A stretch of DNA of 64,000 nucleotides from Eledone cirrhosa (lineage: Eukaryota). The notes beneath the pieces were generated by a model. It searched no databases, was not told where the DNA came from, and saw only the letters and a list, made by a program, of their open reading frames with translations. The stretch lies in NCBI GenBank assembly GCA_964016885.1, contig OZ024740.1, positions 197,594,001 through 197,658,000 on the forward strand, given 5' to 3'. The first letter of the stretch is position 1. Every line of letters starts with the position of its first letter. This document shows, one piece after another, positions 11,567 to 60,306 of this stretch. Made by a program: the position numbers and the translations under genes.

Positions 11567-11609
11567 AATATCACCGGTTTCGATGAGTAAATTCATCTTA
11601 TCAAACATT
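11567..11609 (-). ncRNA. Minimal hammerhead motif, U3-A8 core, non-cleavable GUG triplet
   Basis: Reverse strand aatgt TTGATAA GATG aatttact CATC GAAA CCGG TG atatt; stems I and II pair. Confidence 0.6.
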
Positions 11610-12909
11610 AAATAAAAAAAAGTGAAAAATTAAAAGTTGAAAAATTGGAAGTTAAAAATGTCCATCTGGAAGAATTATTCTCTCTATATATACTGTTCTT
11701 TATATATATATATATATATATATATATACCAACACAGACACACGTACACGCACACACACACAAACGCACACACAAACGCACGCACACACACACACACACA
11801 CACACACACACACACACACACACACACACACACACATACACACACACACACACACACACACACACACACACACACACACACACACACACACACACACACA
11901 TATTGTATATATTGTAGTGTTAGTAATTAGTTATTATATGTATTCTATATGTTTCAATCAGTCAGCAATATTTTTAGAAAGTGCCTATTGTCTACGAAGT
12001 AGTAACATTTACATTAAATGGCAATAGTAAATGAGAGAAAAGAAGGAAGAAAGGAAGGACAGAAAGAATGAAAGAAAGAAGGAAGTGGTGATGGAATGAG
12101 ACCAAATAGATATTGAATTTACTGAGAAGAAAGAGTAAAAATAATATGATGGTGGAGTGTGTAATATAGAAAATATACTGACGAAAGAATTTAGAGACGA
12201 AAGAACTATCATACAGTCAGCAAATATTAATAAACTTCGATCAACAATTGAGTGAAGATCAATTGATTTTATTTAATAACTAAAAACGATAATAATCACA
12301 ATTCGAATAACTATGGGCACTTTTGTTGTTAGCATTAATAAAGTAACTGGCTGCCATTCTTAATAAACAAACATGTCTGAAGAATTAAAGAGGAGAAAGA
12401 ACAAAGAGGTTTATAGATTCTTCAGGTGCCAAAATGAAGATCAAATAAAATAGAAAACTGAAAGAAGTTTTCACTTTTTAAACCATATGACTTATTCTGT
12501 AAAACACGTTGAAAAACTTTTATAAATTTTGTGATTTCTAGAAATCTGTTGTAGACATTATATGTACATTATATTTGTTTGGGTCTTTATTTAAGAAGTT
12601 CAACTCGCCGGAATTAATGCTTTCTTATATTCTTTTACTGCCTTCAATGACTAGGCTCATACTGGGGCATATCGACCCCAGGACTTATTTTATAAAGCCT
12701 GGTATATATGTTATAATCTCTCTTTTTTAAAGTAAGAGTTTAGTTACTGGACATAAAATCAGACACAGAATGAACACACACAACTGCAGTTTCTGTCTAC
12801 CAAATTTTACTCACAAGGCATTGGTCAACCTAAGGCTATAGTAGAAGACACTAACAGAATGTACCGCGCAGCGAGTCTGAAATTAAAACCAAGTAATTGT
12901 GAAATTTCC

Positions 12910-13215
12910 ACTGGTCGCATTGTCCGATTGGTAGACGGCAGTGAACGCCTGGAAGCATTGCAGATGCTAGGCACTCAACCTCAGTCTTCGCTTAAACGAC
13001 GACTGCAGCTCAGCCAATAAGATGAGCTGCGGAAAAACTATCTTACAAATGATGACCACACCTGTTCACCATTTAGGAATATCTGAAGATGCCGTGGTCT
13101 CCGCGTATGTTTGCGTATCATCAGGCACGGCATGTCCGACCTTTCACGTCGGCAGTAGATAGACCACTTCACCAATGGAAACAGCCCCTTCCAAGAAGTT
13201 GAAGAGAATAATAGA
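12910..13215 (-). mobile_element. Degenerate Tx1 ORF2 fragment
   Basis: MPCLMIRKHTRRPRHLQIFLNGEQVWSSFVR matches MPWLMMRKHALRLRHLQVFL of the intact copies. Confidence 0.75.
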
Positions 13216-13764
13216 ACAACCCCCCTCACAACATACGCTCTATATACTTAGTACAATAAAATAATAAAATAACACGACTCACATAACACATCACACACGA
13301 CAGAACAAAAACAAAAATAACAAAAGAAATAACAAGCTAAACCCTATAACGGGGGTTGATAAGCTTAGAAGACTGTGTGAGGAAAGCGCTACAGTCTGAG
13401 GAAATATGCCGAAGAGGTGTTTTGATAGCGGTACGAGAATAAATATTTTGTGACAAGGAAAAAATGAAGTCCTAAAAACTAGAAAGCAATGATATGAGCA
13501 GAAAATCTTACACGGTAGGACATCGCATCGAGACGAGACGTGATTCCAGTGAAAAAACAAAGAAGGTCGAGAGAGAGAGTGAGAGAGAGATAGAGATAGA
13601 TAGATAGATAGATAGATAGGCAGAGAGAGAGAGAGAGAGAGAGAGAGAGAGAGAGAGAGAGAGAGAGAGAGAGAGAGAGAGAGAGAGAGAGATAGGCAGA
13701 GAGAGAGAGAGAGAGAGAGAGAGAGAGGGAGAGAGAGAGAGAGGTGGCTTGATCCCAGCCATTC

Positions 13765-14320
13765 AGGATCCGGCCAATCGAAGCGATATCTATCTGAAAG
13801 AAAATAGTTAAGGAAGTCATCTCGTTTGATCGTAGAGTGTGTAGTGAAAGAGAAGAGACGGTGACACATGTGGTTTCTGAACGCAACATGCTTACTCAAA
13901 AACATTATAAGAACTGGAGACATGACAAAGTTATTACAATCTTACATTGGCAAATGTGTAAAAACTTTGAATTACAGCATGTGAAGCGGCACGGCTCTAA
14001 ACCAGAACGTGTCGTTGAAAACAACCACGTAAAAGTATTATGGGAGATGAAGACTCGAATAGATAAGCAGATGGAGCATTAATGCCCTACTTCTTATTAA
14101 ACACACTAATCAGGAAAGAGTTTTTGGGTAATTGATGCTGCTTTATGAATTTGGTATCAAAATGGTACTCAATGATCGCGAGAAAATAGAAAAGTACCAA
14201 GACTTGAAATACGAAATGCAGAGAATCTTGCTTCGCCACAAAGTTGTTATCATTCCAATTGTAATAGAAACCTTAGGGACAGTAGGCAGAAGTTTGAATA
14301 ATTGGCAAATTTCCTGAATT
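13765..14320 (+). mobile_element. Degenerate R4/Dong-like C-terminal fragment (zinc knuckle + RLE)
   Basis: ETVTHVVSE..HYKNWRHD..KVLWE..EKIEKYQDL..IPIVIETLG. Confidence 0.75.
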
Positions 14321-15051
14321 TGCAGAAAGCTTGATTGAATGACATAACAAGAACCATACGGAAATTGCTAGATATCCAATAATTGAGCATTTAGGCAACT
14401 CTATTAAATGAAAATCGGGTTCAGTACCCAGAATTAAATATTCTCTATAATCAATGTGTTTACATATATTTTTCAAATTCATGTTACGGTATACCTTTCT
14501 GTAAGGAGTAAGGAAGGGCAGATCTGGCTATATGGGAAAGTAGAGGAAAGGACTATGAAAGCTATAAATGAGAGGAAAAGGAGGGGAAAAGCAAGGACTC
14601 TAGGGCCACAGATGAAAGGGAGGGGAAGGGGTGAGGGCGATGGGCACTGAGCCTAGGGCGCGGCGGTGTTGGGGCTGCACCCCGCGGACATTACAGCAAA
14701 AGCATTTCCACGGACAATGGTCAGCTACACCCACTGCAACAGACCAATAATTAACACATGAGAAACAATTAGGGTTACACACCCACACACGGTTGAAAAT
14801 TCACTAGTTAAGTCGAGTTAGAACAGCCCACATTTCTGCTCGCCCACGTGCATTATATATATTTCCGGGAAATACCGAAATTAACCGAAAGCACTTTATG
14901 ATAAATGTTGCCACTTCTGCTGCTGATGATGATAATGATATTTTAAAAATTATTCCTAATACTATATTTCTAATTATATTAAGAATTCTGTAGAGTTTTG
15001 CGGAACATATGACTCAATTATTCCGCAAAATGAATTATATATTCTCCGACA

Positions 15052-59225: not shown

Positions 59226-59371
59226 GTGTGTGTGTGTATATATATATATATATATATATATATATATATATATATATATATATGTATATATACAGCCTCC
59301 TGTTATTATATATATATATATATAATAACAGGAGGCTGGACTGGTGTAAATCCTTGAAAGGTTTATTATAC

Positions 59372-59432
59372 TATGATATGATCATTTCAATGACCGGGTT
59401 CCGTATGAATCCGGTGATATCATCAGGTATTC
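59372..59432 (-). ncRNA. Hammerhead-like motif in pLTR-like sequence
   Basis: Reverse strand CTGATGA T ATCACCGG..CCGGTCAT T GAAA TGATCA TA; stem I weak. Confidence 0.6.
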
Positions 59433-59807
59433 GAAATATAACAAAGGAACATAACAAATAAAATCCATGGGGCTGAAAATCAAAGACAAGAGGATGACTG
59501 ACCAACTAGCTGCTTTCACCTCAGTCAGTCGCCCTCAAGTATTGGCTACTCGGTCTACTAATGACCATCTGGTGAGGGGGCTAAGGCTTATAATGTACTA
59601 CCACTTCTCCGTCAAAGAGAAAAAAAGAAGCAAGAAAGAAAGAAGAAAAGTCAGCGTTAGGGTCACACTACAGTCAGGCTAGAAATCGCCGCGAAAAATG
59701 TTTTTCTAAAGAACCTATATCTTTACAGAGGCATTTATATGGGTGTCTGTATGGTATGTGTGAACAGAAATTTGGAACGCTAAACTTATGTTTAGGGTTA
59801 TAGGATG

Positions 59808-60034
59808 AAATAAAAAAAAAAATAAAAAAAAAAAAAAAAATAATAAAAAAAAAAAAAATAAAAAAAATAAAAAAAAAAATAAATAAATAAAAAATAAAAA
59901 AAAATAAAAAATAAAAAATAAAAAATAAAAAATAAAAAATAAAAAATAAAAATAAAAAATAAAAAATAAAAAATAAAAAATAAAAAATAAAAAATAAAAA
60001 ATAAAATAAAAAATAAAAAATAAAAAATAAAAAA
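59808..60034. repeat. (TAAAAAA)n A-rich array
   Basis: Direct reading. Confidence 0.9.
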
Positions 60035-60267
60035 TACGGAATGACCAATTCTATCCAGTGGTGAACCAACAAACCTATATATATATATATATATATATAT
60101 ATATATATATATATATATATATATATATATATATATTAGAAAGTGAGGTTCCTTTACAAAATGAAAAAAAAAAACGAGGTGTCCTACACGACTGAAAGTA
60201 TAAGGAAAAGATATGAAATCGAAATGCAACTGGAGTCTTTTTAAAAAAAAAAAATATTTATTTGGTT

Positions 60268-60306
60268 CCTTTACCGGTTTCGCAGTTCTTGTGCTTTTCA
60301 AAAGTA
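60268..60306 (-). ncRNA. Minimal hammerhead, U3-A8 core
   Basis: Reverse strand ctt TTGAAAA GCA caagaac TGC GAAA CCGG TA aag. Confidence 0.6.

What the first reader, a model, noticed from the sequence alone, without database searches (positions are those of the whole stretch)
11567..60306. Five hammerheads share a compensatory U3-A8 core and a CCGG loop
Seen: UUGAUAA or UUGAAAA replaces CUGANGA at 11567(-), 27673(+), 48294(+), 50604(-) and 60268(-). Each is followed by a paired stem II (four different stems) and GAAA-CCGG-U. Known: C3-G8 is a tertiary Watson-Crick pair and the U3-A8 swap can preserve activity. Inference: this is covariation rather than decay, defining an HHR subfamily that canonical-core searches miss; one copy lies in the Neptune-like PLE 3'UTR.
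Basis: partly seen in the sequence, partly recalled or inferred. Interest (0 to 1): 0.75.

Follow-up and report, generated by a model that had tools for sequence, protein, structure and literature searches.

The report
Penelope hammerheads with swapped core pair
These five motifs are end pieces of four related Penelope-type jumping genes, each carrying a tiny RNA motif predicted to cut itself as a pair of copies; their U-A core pair replaces the usual C-G pair throughout these families and likely keeps the fold working, a variant already described in other animals.

Summary
Real, mostly known. The five motifs are type I minimal hammerheads in pLTRs of four related Neptune/Nematis-type Penelope-like families (A-D). 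'CCGG' is a palindrome (ACCGGU) predicted to form an intermolecular helix III. Genome-wide pattern counts: U3-A8 17,927, U3-G8 97, C3-A8 87, C3-G8 2, so U3-A8 is the state of the parent elements, not decay. These are copies, not independent events. The covariation evidence comes from relatives in other organisms: 35 of 36 detected hammerheads pair 3-8 Watson-Crick (27 C-G, 6 U-A, 1 G-C, 1 A-U), and three close relatives have the same ACCGGU with C3-G8. U3-A8 recurs on the tree, so it is not one hammerhead subfamily. It is published for natural hammerheads (PMC3088659) and for Schistosoma PLEs (~1,300 copies, PMC4209133), and this scan found it before on other DNA. Activity is untested; helix I is weak in B, C and D1. 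One extra: 5' junctions of family A copies are enriched about 3-5-fold at the predicted cut site, suggestive of in vivo cleavage, but RT pausing or microhomology are not excluded.

The parts
11572..11604 (-). U3-A8 minimal hammerhead, family C-like, decayed (G17); remnant about 11562-11657
   Evidence: 72% to a family C copy
27494..27878 (+). Solo pLTR (3' end piece) of young family B; hammerhead 27678-27715, C17
   Evidence: 99.7% to the 3' pLTR of full-length element L124
48244..48422 (+). pLTR fragment of family C; hammerhead 48298-48335, A17
   Evidence: 88% to copy L001
50389..53610 (-). 5'-truncated, broken family D Penelope-like element: RT and C-terminal GIY-YIG ORF pieces (about 51109-53436), 3'UTR and pLTR
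   Evidence: 88% to L136 over 3.2 kb; 56% aa to family B ORF
50609..50638 (-). U3-A8 minimal hammerhead of family D (U.U at 10.1/11.1, helix I eroded)
60076..60340 (-). pLTR fragment of family A (most abundant); hammerhead 60272-60301, A17
   Evidence: 87-91% to L140 pLTRs

Best explanation
The five motifs are minimal type I hammerhead motifs in the terminal repeats of four related Penelope-like retrotransposon families, whose parent elements carry U3-A8 instead of C3-G8; the swap likely preserves the 3-8 tertiary pair, and the RNA is predicted to self-cleave after H17 only as a dimer joined through the ACCGGU palindrome, likely with help from the element's protein. Shown: the motifs, their place in pLTRs 3' of RT-GIY-YIG ORFs, fixation of U3-A8 in families A-E, and Watson-Crick covariation across relatives. 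Inferred: one origin in the ancestor of these families; dimer fold; cleavage. Most genomic copies are short 5'-truncated or fold-back by-products made from uncut RNA (they run through the cut site); a minority may derive from cut RNA.
For: Counts 17,927 U3-A8 vs 97, 87 and 2. Family D pattern 1,691, with 99 of the 100 listed U3-A8. Full-length family B units of 4.7-4.9 kb run pLTR-ORF-pLTR with the hammerhead in each pLTR. Families are 43-77% identical in protein yet keep the core and palindrome while stem II changes with pairing kept. Relatives from metagenome and MAG contigs: 36 of 87 loci gave a hammerhead, 35 with a Watson-Crick 3-8 pair; antisense control 1 hit; 0 of 100,000 permutations reach 35 (ignores relatedness). 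Own families form one clade (FastTree support 0.997) among mostly C3-G8 relatives. ACCGGU self-duplex -8.3 kcal/mol; predicted dimers of a young A copy and of two C3-G8 relatives form intermolecular helices I and III with stem II intact. Literature: U3-A8 active in vitro and natural; PLE hammerheads cut weakly as dimers and need the PLE protein. 5' junctions are enriched at the predicted cut site.
Against: No cleavage was measured. Helix I is only 2 bp plus mismatch or bulge in families B, C1 and D1 (4 bp in young A, C2, D2). The predicted lowest-energy folds of the window's B copy and of the D2 and E copies are not the hammerhead fold. In family C, U3-G8 copies are commoner than elsewhere (48 of the 97 by hand count, against 601 tight-pattern U3-A8), though scattered on a weakly supported tree. 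Unnamed proteins from other data sets nest between families A, B/C and D/E and their hammerheads could not be seen, so a single origin is not proven. In the anole PLE, cleavage was dispensable for insertion in vitro and no RNA ends were seen at the cut site.
Confidence: 0.75

Rival explanations
1. The motif is kept by selection as a folded cis-element (protein-binding, promoter or RT signal) but no longer cuts in most of these families.
For: Weak helix I in B, C1, D1; nearly all copies read through the cut site; cleavage dispensable in vitro for a Poseidon PLE.
Against: Catalytic letters, a non-G17 and the 3-8 Watson-Crick pair are kept across families; junction excess at H17 in family A.
Confidence: 0.18
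2. U3-A8 is two independent AT-biased mutations in a dead ancestral motif, amplified as a passenger.
For: Both changes are GC-to-AT in a 37% GC window; within this genome the pair is invariant, so copy counts alone do not show covariation.
Against: The core is unchanged across families only 43-77% identical in protein; six unrelated relatives also have U3-A8 and none of 36 has U-G or C-A; the CpG in ACCGGT is kept.
Confidence: 0.04
3. U3-A8 with ACCGGU defines a distinct new hammerhead subfamily of single origin.
For: In this genome practically all ACCGGU minimal hammerheads with G10.1-C11.1 are U3-A8 (17,927 vs 2).
Against: Same palindrome and layout with C3-G8 in L292, L293, L300; U3-A8 with other palindromes in six distant relatives; published in Schistosoma.
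Confidence: 0.03

Closest known systems
U3-A8 minimal hammerheads of Cercyon Penelope-like elements, Schistosoma mansoni (Cervera and De la Pena 2014, PMC4209133)
   Same: Type I minimal motif in pLTRs, U3-A8 core, palindromic 15.2-16.2 region, mostly single or opposite-strand copies from truncated PLEs.
   Different: About 20,000 copies here against ~1,300; five families with a Neptune/Nematis-type linker; 6-nt ACCGGU palindrome; shorter helix II (3-5 bp vs 7-8); most families lack the unpaired base between A9 and G10.1.
Drosophila-, rotifer- and shrimp-type PLE hammerheads with small palindromic helix III (PMC4209133)
   Same: Palindromic helix III for dimer formation; helix I may be as short as 2 bp.
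   Different: The paper reports the U3-A8 core only for S. mansoni in the parts read.
Natural U3-A8 hammerheads and U10.1-U11.1 variants (Perreault et al. 2011, PMC3088659)
   Same: Same core covariation; the U-U at the base of stem II matches family D.
   Different: Not described there as PLE pLTR motifs in the section read.
Anolis Poseidon PAc hammerhead (PMC11167929)
   Same: Hammerhead in the pLTR near the ORF start, tail extension, AT-rich targets; 3-8 double mutant partly rescues.
   Different: C3-G8 wild type, Poseidon clade; activity measured there, not here.

Membership tests
Type I minimal hammerhead of metazoan PLEs | Core U4-G5-A6, A9, G12-A13-A14, A15.1-U16.1 | tested here: met
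   all five copies
Type I minimal hammerhead of metazoan PLEs | Watson-Crick pair between positions 3 and 8 | tested here: met
   U3-A8 in all five; 17,927 vs 97 and 87 single mismatches; 35 of 36 in relatives
Type I minimal hammerhead of metazoan PLEs | Helix II, usually closed by G10.1-C11.1 | tested here: met
   3-5 bp; G-C in A, B, C, E; U.U or U-A in D, a variant noted in PMC3088659
Type I minimal hammerhead of metazoan PLEs | Palindromic helix III region | tested here: met
   ACCGGU, self-duplex -8.3 kcal/mol
Type I minimal hammerhead of metazoan PLEs | Helix I of about 4-5 bp (2 bp in D. virilis) | tested here: inconclusive
   4 bp in young A, C2, D2; 2 bp plus mismatch or bulge in B, C1, D1; 1 bp in window copy 50609
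Type I minimal hammerhead of metazoan PLEs | H17 (not G) at the cut site | tested here: met
   A 43 of 47 in family A, C 15 of 15 in B, A or U 23 of 23 in C; 4 of 5 window copies, the exception being G17 at 11572
Type I minimal hammerhead of metazoan PLEs | Self-cleavage as a dimer | not testable with these tools
   only indirect: junction excess at the cut site
C-terminal-EN Penelope-like element, Neptune/Nematis type | RT followed by C-terminal GIY-YIG nuclease | tested here: met
   GIY-YIG PF01541 E 1e-6 in family E; DKG and YLDD motifs in B; top homologues carry RT and GIY-YIG Pfams. Family B and the window D piece gave no local Pfam hit
C-terminal-EN Penelope-like element, Neptune/Nematis type | CX2-5CxxC linker and CCHH motif | tested here: met
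   C-x4-C-x2-C before the nuclease and two Cys inside the GIY-YIG motif in B and D translations; definition from PMC8557442
C-terminal-EN Penelope-like element, Neptune/Nematis type | Direct and inverted pLTRs, tail, (TA)n targets | tested here: met
Neptune clade proper (vs Nematis) | RT phylogeny with named reference elements | not tested

The most novel reading that the evidence does not exclude
The genome itself records in vivo self-cleavage by a U3-A8 hammerhead: about 150 family A insertions begin at the H17/1.1 cut site, meaning cut RNAs are made in the germline and retrotransposed. That would be fossil evidence that PLE minimal hammerheads cut in vivo, which direct RNA data have so far failed to show.
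Probability: 0.45. Interest if true: 0.55.

Novelty: new member of a known kind. Interest (0 to 1): 0.3.

Why it matters
It adds about 20,000 hammerhead motifs that a CUGANGA descriptor would miss and shows, on a retroelement tree, that the 3-8 pair is swapped repeatedly while staying Watson-Crick, which argues that PLE hammerheads stay under selection for the catalytic fold. Whether PLE hammerheads cut in vivo is open (PMC11167929 saw no RNA ends at the site); junction pile-ups offer a cheap genome-only test. The core variant itself is not new.

Tried and rejected
Rfam: no hammerhead among the 150 best of 369 listed window matches (microsatellite noise; 219 rows not shown) and 0 gathering hits in 8 loci. 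Link of copy 27678 to the adjacent Naiad-like fragment (26.5-27.5 kb): rejected; the only match is a reading frame through the pLTR, and family B's own ORF is of the Neptune/Nematis type. ORF next to the family C hammerhead in L134: belongs to a fifth family E. CpG decay as the cause of U3/A8: contexts are not CpG in most families (rows). U3-G8 as an ancestral wobble subclade in family C: 11 G8 copies scatter among 45 on a weak tree; no A-to-G strand excess suggesting RNA editing (A>G 2.6% vs T>C 3.8%). GT in ACCGGT as a splice donor: rejected because relatives keep palindromy, not the letters. Viral contigs: pattern hits look like chance (13 of 120 with a 3-bp stem) and no related ORF. Lunse et al. 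2017 (PMC5785218) is not held; it and unread supplements of PMC4209133 and PMC8557442 may already list such motifs.

Full report
1. Observation. The five motifs are in the window at 11572-11604(-), 27678-27715(+), 48298-48335(+), 50609-50638(-) and 60272-60301(-), counted from N3 to H17. Each reads U3-U-G-A-N-A8-A9, stem II, GAA, ACCGGU, N17. Dinucleotide shuffles give 0.005 per window (200 shuffles). The window lies in a 3.0-Gb genome rich in microsatellites and LINE and PLE remains; the taxon was not determined.

2. Genome counts. With G10.1, C11.1 and GAAACCGGT fixed, the genome has 17,927 U3-A8, 97 U3-G8, 87 C3-A8 and 2 C3-G8 matches (both lack the family stems). Reversed-pattern controls gave 1, 2, 3 and 140. 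A family D pattern gave 1,691, with 99 of the 100 listed U3-A8. The GATG..CATC stem type gave 2,808, of which a tight family C pattern takes 601; family A is therefore about 15,000 (by subtraction, not counted). The single mismatches are family copies with one transition, as expected after insertion. So U3-A8 is the parental state. These are copies of a few parents and by themselves do not show covariation. Against uniform decay, family C supplies 48 of the 97 U3-G8 rows but only 8 of the 87 C3-A8 rows (hand counts); the 11 G8 copies I could place scatter among 45 family C copies on a weakly supported tree, which fits a mutation hot spot.

3. Parent elements. Family B has full-length units of 4.7-4.9 kb, pLTR-ORF-pLTR, often with an inverted 5' pLTR; the ORF starts about 170 nt after the hammerhead. 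Window copy 27678 is a solo pLTR 99.7% identical to one. Families A, C, D and a fifth family E sit 3' of related ORFs: C is 74-77% to B, E 71-73% to D, B 56% to D, A 43-51% to the others. [quoted passage not shown] The Naiad-like fragment beside copy 27678 is not its parent.

4. Covariation across relatives. An alignment of the family B protein with 32 homologues retrieved 80 metagenome and 7 MAG loci, probably animal DNA in those assemblies (inference; a named cluster member is from Pinctada). A scorer blind to positions 3 and 8 found a sense-strand minimal hammerhead in 36 of 87 loci (29 downstream of the ORF, 7 upstream; many of the other 51 contigs end too early); the antisense control gave 1. 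States: 27 C-G, 6 U-A, 1 G-C, 1 A-U, 1 G-G; no U-G or C-A. Three pairs of loci are near duplicates, the score threshold was mine, and upstream hits may belong to another element. 0 of 100,000 permutations reach 35 Watson-Crick pairs (relatedness ignored). Three of the closest relatives (L292, L293, L300; 44-46% aa) have the same ACCGGU with C3-G8, and L300, L295 and L375 share family D's U...U flanks on stem II. On a FastTree RT-EN tree of 48 rows, families A-E form one clade (0.997) beside mostly C3-G8 relatives, and U3-A8 appears at six further tips in at least five other places. Unnamed proteins P0001, P0003, P0004 and P0011 nest between the families; their hammerheads could not be read, so one origin is parsimonious but unproven.

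5. Mechanism. ACCGGU is self-complementary (-8.3 kcal/mol); two copies of a young A motif, and of L293 and L300, are predicted to form intermolecular helices III and I with stem II intact. Relatives change the palindrome but keep palindromy (ACGCGU, ACAUGU, AACGUU, AUAUAU, where the scorer rewarded palindromes). In such a dimer positions 3 and 8 stay in the same molecule, so selection acts on the pair in cis (inference). This matches the dimer model of PMC4209133 (parts 1-2 of 4 read) and the protein-assisted cleavage of the anole PLE (PMC11167929, passages and part of the main text). Against: helix I is 2 bp plus mismatch or bulge in B, C1 and D1, and the predicted best folds for the window B copy, D2 and E are not hammerheads. 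Of the five window copies, 11572 has G17 (impairs minimal hammerheads per the abstract start of PMC3884650) and 50609 has lost helix I; only 27678 equals a young parent.

6. A trace of cutting. Fold-backs (50 of 57 listed, hand count): 17 have the longer arm starting at -1..+1, 14 at -2..-13, 8 at the palindrome centre, 3 at +4 or later, 8 are unrelated. Copies with foreign sequence at -5..-2: 175 (43 of the first 100 start at +1 with a non-A before; about 12 of 100 are local duplications or insertions). Two control windows gave 21 (whose filter excludes TA flanks, so unfair) and 35 (about 15 true junctions). Like for like, TATAT directly abutting +1 gave 15 rows (13 loci) against 5 at -8 over the same contigs (p 0.02 on rows). 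In one search (about 39 junctions listed from part of contig 1), 8 of 23 direct (AT)n junctions fall in 3 of 31 positions (p 0.001). This is a 3-5-fold excess touching about 1% of copies. It fits cut RNA as an occasional template, but the only TA dinucleotide of the motif lies at U16.1-A17 (microhomology with TA targets) and RT could pause before the dimer helix. Only family A was tested. Many A copies start 40-50 nt upstream of the motif, likely a transcription start.

7. Known or new. PMC3088659 (passages and section 8) reports natural C3-G8 to U3-A8 covariation and that it is active in vitro. PMC4209133 reports about 1,300 U3-A8 minimal hammerheads in S. mansoni Cercyon PLEs. Searches for the variant returned no other paper naming it, and hammerhead plus octopus plus Penelope returned nothing on these families; Lunse et al. 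2017 was not held. Earlier notes of this scan report U3-A8 PLE hammerheads in other genomes and in another piece of this one (unchecked).

8. Verdict. A real, abundant, inherited and covarying core variant of a known kind of PLE hammerhead; not a new ribozyme subfamily. Identity is secure; catalytic activity is likely but untested. Interest 0.3.

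Noticed in passing
window 49167(-), 49877(-), 56201(-), 56512(+): Four copies of a canonical C3-G8 minimal hammerhead with family D's layout (U flanks on stem II) but an ACUAGU palindrome; parent element not found in the window.
   Followed up: partly
window 33394-36984(+), hammerhead at 37241(+); second broken copy 56.7-58.4 kb: A 1196-codon open frame of another Penelope-like element with an Asn-rich insert and a canonical C3-G8 hammerhead in its 3'UTR.
   Followed up: partly
window 26546-27552(-): Broken fragment that looks Naiad-like (label from recalled motifs, no call), cut at its 3' side by a LINE fragment.
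   Followed up: partly
window 509-8203(+): Tandem LINE units: a zinc-knuckle ORF1 (2838-4436) and an endonuclease-RT ORF2 (4880-8203), plus a second RT piece (509-2275).
   Followed up: no
window 32586(-), 33128(-), 47866(-), 47968(+), 60479(-), 61794(+): Further CUGAUGA cores with longer or eroded stems, probably decayed hammerheads of other families.
   Followed up: no
window 20600-20800, 25470-25995, 29820-30040, 40420-40940, 43660-43885, 63030-63250: A roughly 200-nt dispersed repeat, SINE-like, at least ten copies in the window.
   Followed up: no
L315 and L319: Relatives with G3-C8 and A3-U8 cores, the two rarer Watson-Crick swaps; L319 is sister to U3-A8 element L308.
   Followed up: partly
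L413/L414 (G000:C1:201019491): A family A fold-back that starts at A17 on both arms with an 8-nt palindromic insert between them, possibly untemplated bases added at an RNA 5' end.
   Followed up: no
L372-L378: Penelope-like elements with hammerheads lie on small contigs of bacterial MAGs in the genome collection, likely host-animal contamination.
   Followed up: no
L385-L387: A further U3-A8-type ACCGGU family (stem II GATTG/CAATC) whose ORF was not found.
   Followed up: partly
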